NCBI GenBank assembly: GCA_964519305.1
Contig: CAZFHY010000012.1
Span: forward strand, 32,001 to 96,000
Direction: 5' to 3'
Source: Candidatus Undinarchaeota archaeon
GTDB lineage: Archaea > SpSt-1190 > JASMDC01
Length of the DNA: 64,000 nt
Shown piece by piece: positions 1 to 32,502 of the stretch (positions are counted from its first letter, which is position 1; each line of letters starts with the position of its first letter). The position numbers and the translations under genes are program-made. The notes below the pieces were generated by a model. It was given only the letters and a program-made list of their open reading frames with translations. It was not told the origin of the DNA and did not search any database.

Positions 1-589
1 CCAGAGCGTTCTTTATACCCTGGCGAAGGAGGTTGATGACGTCCGCCCTACCCTCGACGATGATGATCTCGTCAGAGGTGAGGAGGTTGGGTCCGGAGGG
101 GAGCCTCTCGGGCCCATAGTCCACGAGCTCCTCCACCCTGACCGCCTGCTTGACCTCATCGGAGATCTCCTGGGAGTCGGGGAGGATGTCGCTCATCATC
201 TGGGCCAGCAGCTCCTTGGCGCGGTCCACGATGTACTTGCGCTTGGCCATACGAACGTCCTCGATCCTGCCAACGGCGATCTTGGAAGTGCACGGGCCGA
301 TACGGTCTACTGTCTCGAGAGCCGCAGCGATGATGGCGGTCTCGGACTTGTCGAGCGAAGAAGGGACCATTATGGAACCGATGGACTTTCCTGATCGGCT
401 CTTGAGGGTTACCTCTATCCGGCCGATCCGGCCGCTACGCTGGAGCTCACGAAGCTCTAGGTCCGGGCCTAGGAGTCCTTCGGTCTGGCCGAAGACGGCA
501 CCCACTGCATCGGGCTTCTCCACGATGCCATTGACCTCAATCTCTGCGTTGATAATGTACTTTGCTGCAATCGGGCTGATTTTTCCCAT
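1..589 (-). CDS. dnaG: Archaeal DnaG-like primase / exosome-associated protein (5' part; runs off window start)
   Basis: Manual translation from ATG at 589: [60 protein letters not shown], the archaeal DnaG N-terminus; GGTGA RBS upstream. Not in the ORF track because it is truncated. Confidence 0.95.
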
Positions 590-27124: not shown

Positions 27125-27721
27125 TTACCCTCCGAACTCTTCTACGGGTACTTCGTACTCGACATCCGGGGGAAGGGTTCCACGCTCGATGAGCATCTCC
27201 TTTGCGATGATCCAGTAGACCAGCCCGAGCGACTTCCGCCCCTTGTTGTTGGAGGGGATGATGAGGTCTATGTTCTCCTTTATGTGGTTGGTATCGCAGA
27301 GAGAGACGATGGGGACACCGACCTCCATAGCCTCAGTGATACACTGCTTGTCAGCGATCGGATCGTTGACGAACACGACCCTAGGCTCAATGTACTTCTC
27401 GTAGGCGGGATTGGTAAGGGTCCCGGGCATGAACCGTCCGATACAGGGGGTACAACCCGTGGCCTCAGCGAACTTGCGGACCGGTTTCTTGGCGATCTCA
27501 CGGGCGGCCACGACAAGAACCTCGCTCGGATCGTACCGGGATAGGAACCGGGAGACGACCCGCAGGCGCTCGTCGATCTTCTGGATGTTCATCACGGCCA
27601 GACCGTCAGGACGGAGCTTGTAAATGAACTCGCTCATATCCTTCATCTTCTGGCGGGTGCCGATGTGTACGCCACTGACAAGGTACTTCTCCAACGGCAC
27701 AAGTTTCCTTTGCCTACTCAT
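27125..27721 (-). CDS. rps2: 30S ribosomal protein uS2
   Basis: GVHIGT, GRFMPGTLTNP, IPSNNKG. Confidence 0.97.
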   Translation of the reverse strand: MSRQRKLVPLEKYLVSGVHIGTRQKMKDMSEFIYKLRPDGLAVMNIQKIDERLRVVSRFLSRYDPSEVLVVAAREIAKKPVRKFAEATGCTPCIGRFMPGTLTNPAYEKYIEPRVVFVNDPIADKQCITEAMEVGVPIVSLCDTNHIKENIDLIIPSNNKGRKSLGLVYWIIAKEMLIERGTLPPDVEYEVPVEEFGG

Positions 27722-27736
27722 CGCCAAGCCCACCAC

Positions 27737-28510
27737 CTAGGTTTTTTTAAACCTTGCTACGGCGGTGAGGACACCATCACTGAGCGTCGGAACAGTCCTC
27801 TTCGCGAGCGCTATGGCCTGTGATACCTTATCGGGCGAGAGCGGGCCCCGGCCACCGGCCGAGACCTGCGCAATAGCGCCGTCCGGCAGGAAGGTAACGC
27901 GGACCTTGGCGTCGGTCACTGCTTCTTCCTCCCGGGTGAGGTCGGCCACGAGCTTCCCGTCCACCAGGCCAAGTGTGCAGGTGACGGGCAATCCGTCCAC
28001 CATCAGTGGGCCGACCCGCTCGTCCCGGACCACCCTCCCGCTGTCAAAGCGCGGCATCCGCGCTGAGGCAAGAGCCGCAACCGATGCCAACACACAGGCG
28101 TCGACCAGAGAACCGTCATCGTTGATGCAGCGTACGTCGAGCTGCACGTGCCACACCGTCCGTCCGGGCTCGATGCACAGACGCATGAGATCAATGGCCT
28201 CAGCATCGCGAAGCGCACGCTCCACGGCCCGGGCAAGAGGAGCATTATCCTTGCCAGCATGGACAAGTAGCACCCCCTCCACAGGATGGTCCGCCACGGG
28301 TGGAGCGGCCTCGAGCCGGACACCGGCAATGACATGGGTCCTCCCTAAGAAGACCTGAGCGGAGCCCTCGGCCACCGGTGCCACGTCGCACATGACCTTC
28401 ACAGGACGGACATCGCCCATGCCCCTGCCATCGAACCGCTGACCGTTCGCCAGAAGGCGTCGTACAGTCCGACGGACCATAGTGCAATCCACCAATCGGG
28501 CAGGCATCAT
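27737..28510 (-). CDS. rrp42: Exosome subunit Rrp42 (divergent)
   Basis: RFDGR, AEGSAQVFLG.T.VIAGV, LCIEPG..VW, DDGSLVDA; operon position. Confidence 0.88.
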   Translation of the reverse strand: MMPARLVDCTMVRRTVRRLLANGQRFDGRGMGDVRPVKVMCDVAPVAEGSAQVFLGRTHVIAGVRLEAAPPVADHPVEGVLLVHAGKDNAPLARAVERALRDAEAIDLMRLCIEPGRTVWHVQLDVRCINDDGSLVDACVLASVAALASARMPRFDSGRVVRDERVGPLMVDGLPVTCTLGLVDGKLVADLTREEEAVTDAKVRVTFLPDGAIAQVSAGGRGPLSPDKVSQAIALAKRTVPTLSDGVLTAVARFKKT

Positions 28511-29217
28511 TTGTCCTCACCTCTGGGCTCGTACCGACGGAGGAACGAGTCGGTCATTAGGTCACGGACAGAACCCATACCGCGTGCTGCGAGGCCTAGA
28601 GCGCTCTCGAGCTCGACCGGCGAGTGCCTGCCGTTGGCGAAGAGAAGGACCAGGTCCCCTCCATGACATGTGAAGCATGCGGTTATCGTGGATGACGCCC
28701 ATGTAGCCTCGATCTCCGACGGGTCCAGGGCGATGAACCGCTTCCCTTGTGCATCATGGATTATGACCACGTCAAGGGCGGCCACCAGATCGCGCATGGG
28801 CACGCCTGCGTCCGCCAGTGCAAGAGAGGCTGCGGTGAGTGCTGTTGCGAGAACGCTGGCACCAGAGGCCACGAGCTGGATGTGTACATCGACGACACAG
28901 CCGGGGAGGTCTTCGAAGAGCACCAGTGTGCTCAAGGCATCCTCCATCCGTTCGGTGAGATCGTCATGTTGTACAGGACCGATGAACGATGGCATATCGA
29001 TCGTGCACCTGACGGTCTTGAGATCATCTTCATTCTCTTGAGGCTCATGCGGTCCGTTGACCGTGACGAGCACCTTCGTACCGCATCGCTCGACCTTGGC
29101 GGATCCGTCGACCCGGGGTATTATCCCGGTCTCGGCCACAGCAGAGCTCATCGCATCGAGGGCTCGGCCATCGAGCCGTCTACCGTCGACGTAAAGGCTC
29201 TCAGCTCGCCTACGCAT
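28507..29217 (-). CDS. rrp41: Exosome subunit Rrp41 (divergent, catalytic motifs absent)
   Basis: RLDGR, DGSA, V.GP.E, AASLALADAGVPMRDLV; position between rrp4 and rrp42. Confidence 0.88.
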   Translation of the reverse strand: MRRRAESLYVDGRRLDGRALDAMSSAVAETGIIPRVDGSAKVERCGTKVLVTVNGPHEPQENEDDLKTVRCTIDMPSFIGPVQHDDLTERMEDALSTLVLFEDLPGCVVDVHIQLVASGASVLATALTAASLALADAGVPMRDLVAALDVVIIHDAQGKRFIALDPSEIEATWASSTITACFTCHGGDLVLLFANGRHSPVELESALGLAARGMGSVRDLMTDSFLRRYEPRGEDK

Positions 29218-29884
29218 CACGGCGTGCACCCTCCAGGAAACCCCGAACTGAGTCTGTCAATCCGCGGGTGTGAACATTCGCCTCGACGAGCCCTACGGCC
29301 CGTGCGGCCAGTAGCTGAGCACCGGGTGCCCCCTGAATCAGGACACGTCCGTTGAGACCGACGATGATGGTGCAGCCGGTCAGCTCACGGATCATGCCCA
29401 CCATGCTCCCACTTCGCCCGATGAGGCGGGCGACCTTGGGTGCCGGTATGTCGATGAGGATCCCCTCGGAGATAGGGCCGTGGTCCGTTCCACCTATATC
29501 GAGCATCGCATGCTTTTCCTCGTCCATACCGCCCACGGCCGCGAGCACTGCGTCACCCTTCCGCCAGCCACGCTCCGGTCTCCGGGTATCGCCCTCCTTC
29601 AGCTCCAGGTCCGCGGACCATGGGGCCTTGATATCGACCTCTATCCATGTTCCGCGCACGGCCGTGACGATACCGATGATAAGATCGCCCTTGGACGGTT
29701 GGTAGAGGCCTCCCAGAGGGATGACACCCACATCGCCACCGCGCACCGAGGCCAGACCTACGACCGTGGATAAGAGCGAATCTCCATCGAGCCGGGTGCC
29801 GGGAGAGACTCGTCCCTCCACACCCGATGACAGAGGTGTGCCGGGAACGACAAGCTGCCGAGGTTTCACAAGGATGCGGGCCAT
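29210..29884 (-). CDS. rrp4: Exosome RNA-binding subunit Rrp4
   Basis: LVVPG, IPLGG.Y.P..GDLIIG (S1), KVARLIGRSGSM and GLNG (KH). Confidence 0.93.
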   Translation of the reverse strand: MARILVKPRQLVVPGTPLSSGVEGRVSPGTRLDGDSLLSTVVGLASVRGGDVGVIPLGGLYQPSKGDLIIGIVTAVRGTWIEVDIKAPWSADLELKEGDTRRPERGWRKGDAVLAAVGGMDEEKHAMLDIGGTDHGPISEGILIDIPAPKVARLIGRSGSMVGMIRELTGCTIIVGLNGRVLIQGAPGAQLLAARAVGLVEANVHTRGLTDSVRGFLEGARRDA

Positions 29885-29899
29885 CGAAGTCACCAGGGA

Positions 29900-30604
29900 T
29901 CAGGGGAAATGCTCCAGCACGCGCGTCTCGGCCTCGCCGTGCGTGATACCGGCGAGCTTACCGAAGAACTCGTCCTGCATCCCCGCTGGGATCTCCACCA
30001 CGGCGACCCATGATCCGTCCTTAAGCCACTGGTCCTGCTTCATCTCGCCGAAGGTACGGACCTCTCGCTGAGCGTGACTTGCATAGCTCGGAGGGATCTT
30101 CAGCGCGATGATTCGCTTCTCGAACTTGAGGGGCAGGAGCGGTCTTAGCACCTTGACAACATCGGCCATCTGCTGCTCGGCGTCCTTGAAGATATCGCAG
30201 TGCACCTTTGCCTCTTCCATAGCACGCTCGATGCGAACCACAGGGTGCGGAGTACCTGTCTGTGGATTGATCGCATTACGGGATATGAGAGCTGCTACCT
30301 GCTTGAACTTCTCCTCCGCCATGTGACGCTTCTGCTCGGTGGTGAGCTGGATCTGACCCTTGTCGAGTATCTTCTTTGCGACCTCGAACGTATCGGTGGT
30401 CTCGAACACCTTCAACAGCGATTCCTCGCCGCACCGGTCTCCACTATGAGCGTCCTTGAACACGTCCTGTGCTGCCAGGAGCTTATCGAAATCGACCTTC
30501 TTGCCCTCCTTGTACTCCCGAGCAACATCGGGGTCCACGAGTATCTCGAAGGTCGATCCGAACTTCTGGAGCCGGGCGATTACTGCCCGATCGACATCGA
30601 CCAC
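29900..30604 (-). CDS. Ribosome maturation factor SBDS/Sdo1
   Basis: FEILVDP, GQIQLT.EQ, NPQTGTPHP..RIE.AM. Confidence 0.97.
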   Translation of the reverse strand: MVDVDRAVIARLQKFGSTFEILVDPDVAREYKEGKKVDFDKLLAAQDVFKDAHSGDRCGEESLLKVFETTDTFEVAKKILDKGQIQLTTEQKRHMAEEKFKQVAALISRNAINPQTGTPHPVVRIERAMEEAKVHCDIFKDAEQQMADVVKVLRPLLPLKFEKRIIALKIPPSYASHAQREVRTFGEMKQDQWLKDGSWVAVVEIPAGMQDEFFGKLAGITHGEAETRVLEHFP

Positions 30605-30617
30605 GCTGGTCGCCTCC

Positions 30618-31361
30618 TTAGTCCTTGTCCTTTTCGGGCTCGAGCTTCTTGAGGTGCTTGAGGAGCCGGCCCTTCTCCAGTTTGGTGAACTTCCGGTCCT
30701 TGGTGGTGATCACACCGGCCTCGATCTTCTCGGGCTCGATCGGCTCCTTCATGATGCGCTGGAGCGCCTTGAACACCAGACCAATTCCCTTGTCGATGGA
30801 GATGTCGTCCTTGTAGTTGTCCTTGAGGAACTCAAGGACCTCTTTGCGACCCTCCCCCACAGCAGTAGCCTTCCACTCGGTAGGCGTACCGCTGGGATCG
30901 GTCTCGAAGAGACGGGGTCCGGACTCATCCACACCTGCAATAAGAAGGGATACACCAAAAGGCCTGAGCCCTCCGTACTGTGTGAAAAGCTGCTTGATGT
31001 CGCAGATGCGCTTGACCAAAGAGGCGATCTCGATGGCCTCGTCGAACACGATGTGGTTGCGTTGGGATTCGAGGCGCGCGTCATCCACGAGCTTGCGCCC
31101 ATCGGCCACAAGTCCGGAGGTGGCGACTCCAACATGGTCGTCCACTTCGAAGATCTTCTCGACGAAGCTGTGGACCATGAGCACATTGGAGATGCGCTTG
31201 TCCGCCGCGAGCACGACCCCGTCCTTGCAGACGATGCCGATGGCCGTGGCGCCCCTCCGCACCGCTTCCATGGCGTACTGGACCTGGAAGAGGCGTCCGT
31301 CCGGAGAGAAGACGGTACTCGCACGATCATATCCCATCATTTCAGGAGTCATTAGTTCCAT
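30618..31361 (-). CDS. psmA: Proteasome alpha subunit
   Basis: GYDR..TVFSPDGRLFQV, TQYGG.RPFGVS, ETDPSG. Confidence 0.98.
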   Translation of the reverse strand: MELMTPEMMGYDRASTVFSPDGRLFQVQYAMEAVRRGATAIGIVCKDGVVLAADKRISNVLMVHSFVEKIFEVDDHVGVATSGLVADGRKLVDDARLESQRNHIVFDEAIEIASLVKRICDIKQLFTQYGGLRPFGVSLLIAGVDESGPRLFETDPSGTPTEWKATAVGEGRKEVLEFLKDNYKDDISIDKGIGLVFKALQRIMKEPIEPEKIEAGVITTKDRKFTKLEKGRLLKHLKKLEPEKDKD

Positions 31362-31728
31362 TCATATCACCCGTGAACTTTTGCGTTGCTGTGCTGATCG
31401 AACCGGAGACGCCCAGAGTATCGATGCGGACCCGTGCATCGCCGATCTTGGTCACGAGGGCCAGAGAGGCCCTGACCTGATCGACCCGTTCATGCACACA
31501 GCGGACGAGCCCATGTCCGGTCACAGGATCGTACCGGTCCTTCATGACCCACATGCCGGCCTGGGCCGCCCCATGGTCGCCGAGAAATGACCGGACGGAT
31601 GACCGGATGGCCCTGTCCACATCGTTGAACCCTGGGGTAGGGTTCCCGGCTGGCCAAACTTGGTACACTATATATCTCTTTCGTTTTCGCAAATGCGCCG
31701 GCAATCGCCGCTTAGTCTTTTCGTTCAT
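31342..31728 (-). CDS. rnp2: RNase P protein Pop5/Rpp14
   Basis: LR.RKRYIV, G..G, GVSGSI; operon position. Confidence 0.92.
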   Translation of the reverse strand: MNEKTKRRLPAHLRKRKRYIVYQVWPAGNPTPGFNDVDRAIRSSVRSFLGDHGAAQAGMWVMKDRYDPVTGHGLVRCVHERVDQVRASLALVTKIGDARVRIDTLGVSGSISTATQKFTGDMNGTNDS

Positions 31729-32441
31729 TCGATCACCCGCACCCCTGGCGCGATGATGCGCTCGTCCTGTCGGTCCAGTGCCCTTTTCACGACCTTACAT
31801 GGCACAGTGCTAACAGCATCCAGTGCGTCCTCATTATCCATCCCGAGGCAGGTGGCGAACGCGGCAAGGTCCTGTGGCACACGAAGACCGAGCATATCGA
31901 CGGCACCGCTCGAAAGCACTAACTGGGCATCGAACGCGTCTGCATATTCGACGAGCTCTGCTAGCCGTCGGAGGAGACCGATCCTGCCACCTGTGGGTGC
32001 GATCACGTCAGCGAACGAGAGCTCCAACGCCACACCGTTCCGGGCAGCGGCCTCCGCTACTACCTTGTCAACGCCCGAATCACGCCTGCCACGATAAGGG
32101 GCACGGAGCACATCCGTCCCGCGCGACTCGACCGCGTACTTGTTTATCGCCAGGTCACCGCCCAGCACCGCGACCATGTCAGCGAGCTTCCTCGCCCGGC
32201 CGAGGAGGCCGTGGAGACTGCCCTTGGAGCCACCGATCACGTCGAGCTCGGCGCCGATGAGCGTCCCTTCACCGAGGTCCTGGTCCTTGAGCGACCTTAG
32301 GAGCGCCAGCCCTTCCTTTCCACGGACCGGTACGTTGAGGCACACGCGGTGAAAGCCTATGCGCTTGGCCTCGGCGACGAGCTGCCTGGCATCCTCGGTA
32401 GTTCCGGGGTACCGGAGGCCGATGTCGTGGAAGCGGCGCAT
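31725..32441 (-). CDS. rnp3: RNase P protein Rpp30
   Basis: GGDLAINKYAVE, AARNGVALE, SSGA....LR.P.DL. Confidence 0.9.
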   Translation of the reverse strand: MRRFHDIGLRYPGTTEDARQLVAEAKRIGFHRVCLNVPVRGKEGLALLRSLKDQDLGEGTLIGAELDVIGGSKGSLHGLLGRARKLADMVAVLGGDLAINKYAVESRGTDVLRAPYRGRRDSGVDKVVAEAAARNGVALELSFADVIAPTGGRIGLLRRLAELVEYADAFDAQLVLSSGAVDMLGLRVPQDLAAFATCLGMDNEDALDAVSTVPCKVVKRALDRQDERIIAPGVRVIE

Positions 32442-32502
32442 CGGGCGGGGTTGGGGAACACTCCTTAAATGCCTTTGCACGGGACGCGGTATTACCACGG
32501 TT

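What the first reader, a model, noticed from the sequence alone, without database searches (positions are those of the whole stretch)
28507..29217. Exosome Rrp41 lacks all phosphorolytic active-site motifs
Established: active archaeal Rrp41 has P.RR, the phosphate-binding ADGG[TS]R and catalytic LD....ED..G.AD. Seen: the equivalent segments read PSFIGPVQHDDLTE, VASGASVL and LDPSEIEATWASST, while structural motifs (RLDGR, DGSA, AASLALADAGVPMRDLV) persist and the frame is intact in the canonical operon. Inference: a catalytically inert exosome ring, paralleling the inactive yeast/human core, or one that is repurposed or decaying. Rrp4/41/42 look more drifted than neighbouring SBDS and PsmA.
Basis: partly seen in the sequence, partly recalled or inferred. 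Interest (0 to 1): 0.75.

Follow-up and report, generated by a model that had tools for sequence, protein, structure and literature searches.

The report
Dead exosome ring beside borrowed PNPase
This uncultured marine archaeon keeps the three core genes of its RNA-degrading exosome under selection although the catalytic subunit has lost every residue needed to cut RNA, while a bacterial-type enzyme (PNPase) elsewhere in the genome can do that job: a natural archaeal parallel to the inactive exosome core of yeast and humans.

Summary
Rrp41 (window 28507-29217/29229, minus strand) aligns over its full length to solved archaeal Rrp41 chains. It lacks the phosphate binders R99, S138 and R139, both Mg ligands D182 and D188, and the neck arginine R67. 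It also has an 8-residue loop deletion.

All 28 other archaeal Rrp41 sequences I aligned keep these residues. Only the window's genome (G000) and its one congener (G001) lack them.

The gene is not decaying. dN/dS between the two species is 0.16 (95% CI 0.11-0.25), the frames are intact, the genes are translationally coupled, and the fold and the Rrp42 dimer are confidently predicted. Rrp42 is remodelled too (a 15-residue loop deletion), whereas the Rrp4 cap is normal.

There is no second rrp41 and no RNase R. The genome does carry an intact bacterial-type PNPase on a clearly archaeal contig.

In a separate Thermoplasmatota class, 17 of 20 PNPase-bearing genomes have no canonical-level Rrp41: 3 are degenerate and 14 have no real match. 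Of 231 PNPase-free genomes in the same sample, 228 keep a canonical-level Rrp41.

Best reading: a selectively retained, non-catalytic ring whose phosphorolytic role passed to PNPase.

This scan had already noted the PNPase here (e1-4842568) and the same displacement pattern on other DNA (e1-5242849). This lineage is an independent case. My literature searches found no report of it.

The parts
28507..29229 (-). rrp41, catalytically inert form (240 aa from GTG 29229; 236 aa from ATG 29217, which has a GGAGG 12 nt upstream)
29023..29049 (-). Former 'neck' loop: HEPQENEDD replaces the consensus REvHP[RK]H. The Sso R67 position is N66 (29032-29034), and there is a 3-residue deletion
   Evidence: role of R67 from PMC4824110
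28966..28971 (-). Q87-H88 in place of R98-R99 (phosphate/RNA 3'-end binding), directly after an 8-residue deletion of the (E/D)RKRPGP loop
   Evidence: PMC3539426
28849..28866 (-). S-G-A-S-V-L in place of the phosphate loop A-D-A-G-[TS]-R (Sso G137, S138, R139)
   Evidence: PMC3539426
28687..28707 (-). A175 and T181 in place of the Mg-coordinating D182 and D188
   Evidence: PMC3539426
27737..28510 (-). rrp42, remodelled: 15-residue deletion of the conserved AEL..FEPGPP loop, 18 of 48 conserved columns changed, basic instead of acidic. Its ATG overlaps the rrp41 TGA (ATGA)
29210..29893 (-). rrp4 cap subunit (S1 + KH), conserved positions normal (3 of 28 changed). Its stop codon lies 2 nt downstream of the rrp41 ATG
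29900..32498 (-). Upstream genes of the superoperon: SBDS (29900-30604), PsmA (30618-31361), Pop5 (31342-31728), Rpp30 (31725-32498)
27125..27736 (-). Ribosomal protein uS2 gene directly downstream of rrp42
1..589 (-). 5' part of the archaeal DnaG gene (an exosome-associated protein in other archaea). The whole gene is G000:C12:31321-32589
   Evidence: (NF003108, 496.5 bits, cut-off 300)

Best explanation
Rrp41 of this archaeon is a phosphorolytically dead but selectively maintained subunit. It still pairs with Rrp42, and presumably still carries the Rrp4 cap, so the cell makes a non-catalytic exosome-like complex. The 3'-5' phosphorolytic (and tailing) activity that Rrp41 normally supplies is provided instead by a horizontally acquired bacterial-type PNPase encoded on another contig.

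Once PNPase was present, selection on the ring's active site, on its RNA-threading neck and on the chamber loops of both ring subunits lapsed. Selection continued on the fold, and the cap was left unchanged. The complex therefore most likely survives as an RNA-binding or adaptor platform (Rrp4 S1/KH cap, perhaps with DnaG) rather than as a nuclease.

Shown: loss of the residues, purifying selection, absence of a paralog, presence and integrity of PNPase, and the same association in another archaeal lineage. Inferred: that PNPase took over the job, that the ring assembles in vivo, and what the ring now does.
For: - Active-site loss. All six functional residues are replaced in G000 and G001 and kept in 27-28 of 28 other archaea. 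Their roles come from PMC3539426 (Pi bound by R99, S138, R139; D182 and D188 coordinate Mg; D182A abolishes activity) and PMC4824110 (R67G lowers RNA affinity about 1000-fold).
- Selection. dN/dS for G000 against G001 is 0.164 for Rrp41 (bootstrap CI 0.111-0.247, none of 200 replicates above 0.28), 0.18 for Rrp42 and 0.18 for Rrp4. SBDS, PsmA and uS2 give 0.08 and PNPase 0.09.
- Gene integrity. The frames are intact and the start/stop codons overlap.
- Fold. AF2 gives mean pLDDT 87.5 and pTM 0.87. The top Foldseek hits are archaeal Rrp41 chains, TM 0.84-0.89.
- Dimer. The Rrp42-Rrp41 model scores 0.68 against a best control of 0.01. That mark was reached by 58 of 80 solved complexes and 2 of 110 mismatched pairs; the runs agree in at least 94% of contacts and the partner pLDDT is at least 79. 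This is a textbook pair, so the pass may reflect likeness to solved structures.
- No other RNase PH or RNB enzyme. The genome holds four RNase_PH domains only: Rrp41, Rrp42 and two in a 757-aa PNPase. No RNB/RNase R match exceeds the cut-off.
- PNPase integrity. TIGR03591 scores 817 bits (cut-off 525). It scores 623 bits against 5yjj, with the RRE.GHG, SNGSSS and D.ED..G.MDFK stretches aligned residue for residue.
- PNPase belongs to the archaeon. It is flanked by PAN, prefoldin beta, RpoN, L13 and L18e. G001 has a 95% identical ortholog.
- Association with PNPase. PNPase was found in 2 of 41 relatives, G000 and G001 only. In a 251-genome Thermoplasmatota sample, 20 genomes have PNPase. Of those 20, 3 have a degenerate Rrp41 (motifs inspected), 14 have no real Rrp41 match and 3 are at canonical level (for G045, G055 and G064 the motifs are intact). 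Of the 231 without PNPase, 228 have a TIGR02065 match at E <= 1.6e-89.
- Independence. G000 lies apart from that class in the aCPSF1 and Rrp42 trees.
Against: - No biochemical or expression data exist, and no RNA run holding the stretch was listed.
- dN/dS of the three exosome genes is about twice that of neighbouring housekeeping genes, and the Rrp42 stem branch is very long (1.91 against a median end branch of 0.42). Relaxation is therefore real.
- Predicted dimer-interface positions are not better conserved between G000 and G001 than the rest: Rrp41 20 of 26 against 179 of 214, and Rrp42 17 of 27 against 204 of 230.
- Six PNPase-bearing genomes (G042, G043, G045, G055, G056, G064) keep an intact Rrp41, so PNPase does not force inactivation.
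- The PNPase-bearing Thermoplasmatota all belong to one class, so the counts are not independent events.
- With the neck arginine and both chamber loops gone, RNA threading through the ring, which is the eukaryotic scaffold model, is doubtful. That leaves the retained function unexplained.
- The 9 relatives with an Rrp41 match but no fetched locus were not inspected. The motifs of the 228 canonical-level Thermoplasmatota hits were not inspected either.
Confidence: 0.65

Rival explanations
1. Relic on its way out: after PNPase arrived the ring became useless, and the genes are simply slow to die, as in the PNPase-bearing archaea that have already lost them.
For: - Fourteen of 20 PNPase-bearing Thermoplasmatota genomes have no real Rrp41 match.
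- Evolution of Rrp41 and Rrp42 is accelerated: 31 of 61 and 18 of 48 conserved columns are changed, and the stem branch is 1.91.
- dN/dS is twice that of the neighbours.
- Eight of the 29 changed, once-conserved columns (gaps excluded) still differ between G000 and G001.
Against: - dN/dS is 0.16, with an upper bootstrap bound of 0.25 over dS of about 0.6.
- There is no stop or frameshift in either species, and translational coupling is kept.
- The fold is confidently predicted.
- Rrp4 is at normal conservation.
Confidence: 0.1
2. Still an enzyme: catalysis persists through a rebuilt active site (other residues in Rrp41, residues contributed by the now basic Rrp42, or a hydrolytic mechanism).
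For: - Purifying selection.
- Rrp42 switched from acidic to basic: pI 8.6 and net +3, against a median of 4.97 and -9 in 28 others.
- H88 and R94 lie near the old phosphate site.
Against: - Both Mg ligands, all three phosphate-binding side chains and the phosphate loop are gone, and three alignment methods agree on this.
- D182A alone abolishes activity (PMC3539426).
- Rrp42 shows no gain of the ADAG[TS]R or ED..G.AD patterns.
- Rrp41 has only 23 K+R against 33-45 in the others.
Confidence: 0.05
3. Neofunctionalised ring unrelated to RNA decay as such, for example a regulator or docking site for PNPase, aRNase J or aCPSF1, a ribosome-biogenesis factor, or a binder of another ligand in the former chamber.
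For: - Both ring subunits are remodelled in a coordinated way: matching loop deletions and a charge swap.
- The genes remain in the SBDS/RNase P/proteasome superoperon.
- DnaG, aCPSF1 and an RNase J-like protein are present.
Against: No positive evidence for any partner or ligand. The Rrp4 RNA-binding cap is unchanged, which points to a continued RNA-related role.
Confidence: 0.2

Closest known systems
Canonical archaeal exosome core (S. solfataricus, A. fulgidus, P. abyssi, M. thermautotrophicus, T. acidophilum Rrp4-Rrp41-Rrp42; e.g. PDB 2br2, 2je6, 2ba0, 2pnz, 2wnr, 8xie)
   Same: Same genes in the same operon order. Same fold (TM 0.84-0.89). The Rrp41-Rrp42 dimer is predicted. The Rrp4 cap is normal, and DnaG is present.
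   Different: All phosphate, Mg and neck residues are replaced. Chamber loops are deleted in both ring subunits. The TIGR02065 score is 116 against a cut-off of 319, and PF03725 is no longer detected in Rrp41. The charge of Rrp41 and Rrp42 is inverted.
Yeast/human Exo9, the catalytically inactive eukaryotic exosome core that relies on Rrp44/Dis3 and Rrp6
   Same: An RNase PH-type ring kept under selection after loss of phosphorolytic residues, with RNA degradation supplied by another nuclease.
   Different: - The replacement enzyme is a PNPase, itself a phosphorolytic RNase PH ring, and not an RNB hydrolase; none was found.
- No evidence shows that the PNPase docks on the ring.
- The RNA path (neck arginine, chamber loops) is also lost here. 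As I recall it, eukaryotic Exo9 keeps a conserved RNA channel; the highlights of PMC3838930 in the search listing mention a conserved RNA path.
- The ring is still a 3x2 homotypic hexamer built from two genes.
Exosome-less archaea (Halobacteria, some methanogens) that use RNase R instead
   Same: A replacement of the archaeal exosome's 3'-5' activity by a bacterial-type exoribonuclease (stated for RNase R in PMC7144898, passages read).
   Different: In those archaea the exosome genes are absent and the substitute is RNase R. Here the genes are retained in an inert form and the substitute is PNPase.
PNPase-bearing Thermoplasmatota with dead or deleted exosome
   Same: Same association, re-found here independently. 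Of 20 PNPase-bearing genomes, 3 have a degenerate Rrp41, 14 have no real match and 3 are at canonical level. The PNPase of G000 belongs to the same archaeal PNPase clade (SH-aLRT 100).
   Different: The host lineage is different. In the aCPSF1 tree G000 falls in the half that holds its small-genome class-level relatives (SH-aLRT 98), joined with them at a drawn-open fork of 89, while the five Thermoplasmatota rows form their own clade (100) in the other half. The substitutions differ, and there are loop deletions in both subunits. Here a congener allowed a selection test.

Membership tests
Archaeal exosome Rrp41 (TIGR02065 ECX1 equivalog) | RNase PH two-domain fold | tested here: met
   PF01138 scores 65.6 bits. 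The AF2 model has pLDDT 87.5 and matches Rrp41 chains at TM 0.84-0.89. PF03725 (the C-terminal domain model) was not detected at E <= 0.01.
Archaeal exosome Rrp41 (TIGR02065 ECX1 equivalog) | Score above the curated equivalog cut-off | tested here: not met
   115.9 bits against a cut-off of 318.7.
Archaeal exosome Rrp41 (TIGR02065 ECX1 equivalog) | Gene placed between rrp4 and rrp42 in the superoperon | tested here: met
   The same order is seen in G001 and in the relatives.
Archaeal exosome Rrp41 (TIGR02065 ECX1 equivalog) | Phosphate site R99, S138, R139 (Sso numbering) | tested here: not met
   H88, V126 and L127 stand in their place. Roles from PMC3539426.
Archaeal exosome Rrp41 (TIGR02065 ECX1 equivalog) | Mg ligands D182 and D188 | tested here: not met
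   A175 and T181 stand in their place. G001 has G and T.
Archaeal exosome Rrp41 (TIGR02065 ECX1 equivalog) | Neck arginine R67 that holds RNA in the pore | tested here: not met
   N66 within EPQENEDD. Role from PMC4824110.
Archaeal exosome Rrp41 (TIGR02065 ECX1 equivalog) | Heterodimer and hexamer with Rrp42 | tested here: inconclusive
   The dimer model scores 0.68 against a best control of 0.01. This is a prediction only and may reflect likeness to solved complexes. The hexamer was not modelled.
Eukaryote-type inert exosome core (Exo9 plus an associated nuclease) | Ring subunits without phosphorolytic residues but under selection | tested here: met
Eukaryote-type inert exosome core (Exo9 plus an associated nuclease) | Associated RNB-family hydrolase (Rrp44/Dis3) | tested here: not met
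   The best PF00773 hit in the genome scores 11.4 bits, E 0.25.
Eukaryote-type inert exosome core (Exo9 plus an associated nuclease) | Conserved RNA channel through the ring | tested here: not met
   The neck Arg is lost, the loops are deleted in Rrp41 and Rrp42, and Rrp41 has a net charge of -13. This was judged from sequence only.
Polynucleotide phosphorylase (TIGR03591), for the G000:C9 gene | Score over the cut-off, two RNase PH domains plus KH and S1, catalytic stretches intact | tested here: met
   817 bits against 525. Full-length alignment to 5yjj at 623 bits with the catalytic stretches conserved. The relatives carry the Pfam domains PF01138, PF03725, PF00013 and PF00575.

The most novel reading that the evidence does not exclude
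The inert Rrp4-Rrp41-Rrp42 complex has become a dedicated substrate-recruiting adaptor that physically hands RNA to the acquired PNPase (or to aRNase J or aCPSF1). That would be an archaeal, independently evolved equivalent of the eukaryotic 'inactive core plus peripheral nuclease' architecture. It would have arisen at least two or three times in archaea after PNPase capture, giving a living model of the enzyme-to-hub transition that is currently studied by ancestral reconstruction.
Probability: 0.12. Interest if true: 0.9.

Novelty: new variant of a known kind. Interest (0 to 1): 0.7.

Why it matters
Textbook and review accounts describe the archaeal exosome as an active phosphorolytic machine whose catalytic centre is Rrp41, and PNPase as the bacterial counterpart (PMC7144898 passages; PMC7667871 abstract).

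How an active ring became the purely structural Exo9 of animals and fungi is an open question. A 2026 preprint addresses it by ancestral reconstruction (10.64898/2026.03.16.711897, passages read).

These archaea offer extant, simple (two-gene) rings at three stages: active, inert but selected, and lost. All three occur in lineages where the timing of a replacement nuclease (PNPase) can be read from genomes.

Several points become directly testable:
- what an inert ring is kept for;
- whether loss of catalysis precedes loss of the RNA channel;
- whether redundancy from horizontal transfer is enough to trigger the transition.

Tried and rejected
- Second rrp41 or RNase PH paralog: none. There are only four RNase_PH domains in the genome.
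- RNase R/RNB: not found above the cut-off.
- Csl4: no match over the cut-off in G000, nor in any of the 17 genomes of its class. The best class hits are the rrp4 genes themselves. Its absence is therefore not specific to the inert lineage and was dropped as an explanation.
- Contamination as the source of PNPase: rejected. Archaeal marker genes lie within 5 kb, and there is an ortholog in the second MAG.
- Activity moved to Rrp42: no catalytic pattern gained.
- Expression: no RNA holder was listed for window 27737-29893, and read laying was not run.
- Interface conservation as support for assembly: predicted interface residues are not more conserved than the rest, so this was not used as support.
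- G112, G211 and G260, the low-scoring Rrp41 genomes without PNPase: G112's gene is split over two frames, G211's lies at a contig end, and G260 has no RNase_PH match. None is a clear inert form.
- Careful PNPase tree: it did not finish in the time allowed, so only the quick tree is reported.
- Literature: four searches found no paper describing an inactive archaeal Rrp41 or PNPase displacing the exosome in archaea. Subscription-only papers, among them the 2018 FEMS review cited in PMC7144898, were not searchable.
- Residue-level structural superposition: the tools return no coordinates, so a structure-based realignment of the active site could not be made.
Full report
**What is there**

On the minus strand the window carries the archaeal superoperon Rpp30 (31725-32498), Pop5 (31342-31728), PsmA (30618-31361), SBDS (29900-30604), Rrp4 (29210-29893), Rrp41 (28507-29229) and Rrp42 (27737-28510), followed by uS2 (27125-27736).

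The Rrp41 frame is open for 240 codons from a GTG. That ATG lies 2 nt upstream of the rrp4 stop codon, and the rrp41 TGA overlaps the rrp42 ATG as ATGA. The three genes are therefore still translationally coupled.

**Checking the observation**

phmmer against all PDB chains aligns the protein end to end with archaeal Rrp41, E 2.6e-26 to 1.3e-18. Counting along the alignment to S. solfataricus 2br2_B gives these replacements:
- R67 -> N66
- R98/R99 -> Q87/H88
- G137/S138/R139 -> S125/V126/L127
- D182 -> A175
- D188 -> T181

The D182A mutant entry 2je6_B differs from 2br2_B at exactly the D182 column.

The residue roles come from papers, of which I read passages:
- In PMC3539426, Pi is bound by the side chains of R99, R139 and S138 and the main chain of G137-R139. 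D182 and D188 coordinate the divalent ion, and D182A abolishes activity.
- In PMC4824110, R67G in the neck lowers RNA affinity from 11.7 nM to 27 uM.

MAFFT of 30 Rrp41 sequences and hmmalign to a profile built from the 28 canonical ones give the same picture. The 30 are G000, its congener G001, 14 genomes of the same class and 14 other archaea. Only G000 and G001 lack the residues. The 28 others keep R87/R88, R127 and D181 in 28 of 28, and T126 and D175 in 27 of 28. Nine further relatives had an Rrp41 match but no fetched locus and were not inspected, and two had no match.

**How far the remodelling goes**

| Subunit | Columns >=90% conserved in the others that G000 changes | Leave-one-out range in the others |
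|---|---|---|
| Rrp41 | 31 of 61 | 0-6 |
| Rrp42 | 18 of 48 | 0-8 |
| Rrp4 | 3 of 28 | 0-6 |

- Besides the catalytic residues, Rrp41 has lost an 8-residue loop ((E/D)RKRPGP) and three residues of the neck loop. It has also lost many basic residues: K+R is 23 against 33-45 in the others, and net charge is -13, pI 4.9.
- Rrp42 has a 15-residue deletion of its conserved AEL..FEPGPP loop. It has turned basic: pI 8.6 against a median of 4.97.
- Rrp4 is ordinary.
- In 5.8 billion proteins only three clusters (100%, 83% and 83% identity) share this Rrp41 form. The next hit is at 36%.

**Not a pseudogene**

| Gene | dN/dS, G000 vs G001 (NG86) |
|---|---|
| Rrp41 | 0.164 (dN 0.099, dS 0.606; bootstrap 95% CI 0.111-0.247) |
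| Rrp4 | 0.179 |
| Rrp42 | 0.182 |
| SBDS | 0.077 |
| PsmA | 0.077 |
| uS2 | 0.080 |
| PNPase | 0.094 |
| Rpp30 | 0.252 |

- AlphaFold2 with a 36-row alignment gives mean pLDDT 87.5 and pTM 0.87. Confidence is lower only at the shortened loops.
- The best Foldseek matches are archaeal Rrp41 chains, TM 0.84-0.89.
- A model of Rrp42 with Rrp41 scored 0.68 against a best control of 0.01. That mark was reached by 58 of 80 solved complexes and 2 of 110 mismatched pairs. The runs agree in at least 94% of contacts and the partner pLDDT is at least 79. Like complexes are solved, so this shows likeness rather than binding.
- Against assembly: the predicted interface residues are not better conserved between the two species than the rest.

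**What does the job instead**

- The genome (3.63 Mb, 99.8% complete, 4.3% contamination) has four RNase_PH domains only. Two are Rrp41 and Rrp42. The other two lie in one 757-aa ORF on contig C9.
- That ORF is a full PNPase. TIGR03591 scores 817 bits. It scores 623 bits against Staphylococcus PNPase 5yjj, with the catalytic stretches conserved.
- Within 5 kb it is flanked by PAN, prefoldin beta, RpoN, L13 and L18e. G001 has a 95% identical ortholog. It therefore belongs to the archaeon.
- No RNB/RNase R was found.
- aCPSF1, an aCPSF2-like protein, an RNase J-like protein and archaeal DnaG are present.
- Csl4 is not detected in any of the 17 genomes of the class.
- In a quick tree the PNPase falls in a clade of 23 rows (SH-aLRT 100). 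The clade holds all 13 rows from records named as Thermoplasmata or Thermoplasmatota, 7 unnamed rows and one row labelled as a Eubacterium. It is sister to Patescibacteria-type rows.

**The same pattern elsewhere**

*Relatives of G000.* Among 41 relatives, PNPase occurs only in G000 and G001.

*The class of a Thermoplasmata MAG with a related PNPase (27 genomes).*
- 24 have PNPase, counting one that has it only in fragments.
- Only 10 have an Rrp41/Rrp42 pair, and two of those ten lack PNPase.
- I inspected the motifs of these ten and of one further MAG, G042. Eight are intact: G042, G043, G045, G052, G053, G055, G056 and G064.
- Three are degenerate, and all three carry PNPase:

| Genome | Phosphate loop | D182 position | D188 position | RR motif |
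|---|---|---|---|---|
| G047 | ASIGIR | EL | TL | kept |
| G048 | ARSGTV | EK | TV | lost |
| G049 | AGAGLM | EL | SL | lost |

*An evenly drawn sample of 251 genomes of that phylum.*
- 20 have PNPase. Their best TIGR02065 hit is at canonical level in 3, intermediate in the 3 degenerate ones, and only a cross-hit at E 1e-23 to 1e-29 in 14.
- Of the 231 without PNPase, 228 have a hit at E <= 1.6e-89 (motifs not inspected).
- The three exceptions are a frame-split gene, a gene at a contig end, and one genome with no RNase_PH match.
- All PNPase-bearing genomes belong to one class, so these are not independent events.

*Independence.*
- In an aCPSF1 quick tree, G000 and G001 fall in the half of the tree (SH-aLRT 98) that holds the small-genome families of their class. 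The fork joining them to those families has support 89 and is drawn open.
- The five Thermoplasmatota rows form a separate clade (100). Within it, G048 and G049 are sisters (100) and G047 pairs with the intact G045 (90).
- The Rrp42 tree also keeps G000 apart from them (97), despite long branches that would favour false attraction.
- G000 shares a 5-residue insertion before the LD motif with its class relatives and not with the Thermoplasmatota sequences.
- Inactivation therefore happened at least twice, and probably three times.
- After I had these results I found the scan's note e1-5242849. It reports PNPase displacing the exosome, with dead or deleted exosomes in relatives, on another genome. 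My counts agree with it. This window adds an independent lineage and a selection test.

**Interpretation**

The most economical reading runs as follows. PNPase capture made the ring's phosphorolytic site redundant. Selection then lapsed on the site, on the neck and on the chamber loops, yet continued on the fold and left the cap untouched.

What the inert complex does is inferred, not shown. With an intact S1/KH cap and DnaG still encoded, an RNA-binding or adaptor role is the likeliest. Threading RNA through the ring, as in eukaryotic Exo9, looks unlikely given the lost neck arginine and the acidic Rrp41.

The rival readings are given with their evidence in the Rival explanations section:
- a slowly dying relic;
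- a rebuilt active site;
- a function unrelated to RNA decay.

**Comparison with the literature**

- Reviews and papers I could read describe archaeal exosomes as active, with Rrp41 as the catalytic centre. They describe replacement by RNase R in halophiles and some methanogens, and treat PNPase as bacterial (PMC7144898 passages; PMC7667871 abstract).
- A 2026 preprint studies how Exo9 turned from an enzyme into a hub and places that transition within eukaryotes (passages read).
- Four full-text searches found no description of an inert archaeal Rrp41 or of PNPase replacing the exosome. Subscription journals are not covered by these searches.

Noticed in passing
window 27737-29229: Charge inversion within the ring. 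Rrp41 is acidic (pI 4.9, net -13; others have median pI 7.9) and Rrp42 is basic (pI 8.6, net +3; others have median pI 4.97, net -9). Both values lie outside the range of 28 other archaea.
   Followed up: partly
G043:C38 (L163), G050:C11 (L164); also ORFs of about 250 aa in G048, G049, G051, G062, G065, G066, G067, G068: Several PNPase-bearing Thermoplasmatota also carry a single-domain, bacterial-type RNase PH-like gene. In the two I inspected, the QADGG[TS]R and D..D motifs are intact. G000 has none.
   Followed up: partly
window 1-589 and the whole class: Archaeal DnaG is present and scores well over its cut-off, yet Csl4 is not detected in any of the 17 genomes of the class. In S. solfataricus, DnaG is reported to need Csl4 to bind the exosome (PMC3672285, title and abstract in the search listing).
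   Followed up: no
P0171 in the PNPase tree: A PNPase labelled '[Eubacterium] cellulosolvens' by its source nests inside the archaeal PNPase clade next to a Thermoplasmata MAG (SH-aLRT 100). This is a possible mislabel, a contaminant or a back-transfer.
   Followed up: no
G112:C19:8326-8723 (L168, L169): The rrp41 of a 1.3-Mb Thermoplasmatota genome without PNPase is split over two overlapping frames. This is either a frameshift or an assembly error.
   Followed up: no
G000 and G001 versus G002-G016: G000 and G001 (3.6-3.8 Mb, about 60% GC in the window) are placed in the same class as genomes of only 0.6-1.2 Mb. This is an unusually large-genome member or sister of a small-genome (DPANN-type) group. 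The public title of G001's record names it as an Undinarchaeales archaeon.
   Followed up: partly
G000:C9:54782-57052 (L036:8783-11053): The PNPase ends in an Arg/Gly/Asp-rich repeat tail (RSGGRDRDRRGGGRDRRGGRDRDRRSRDRRD) beyond the S1 domain.
   Followed up: no
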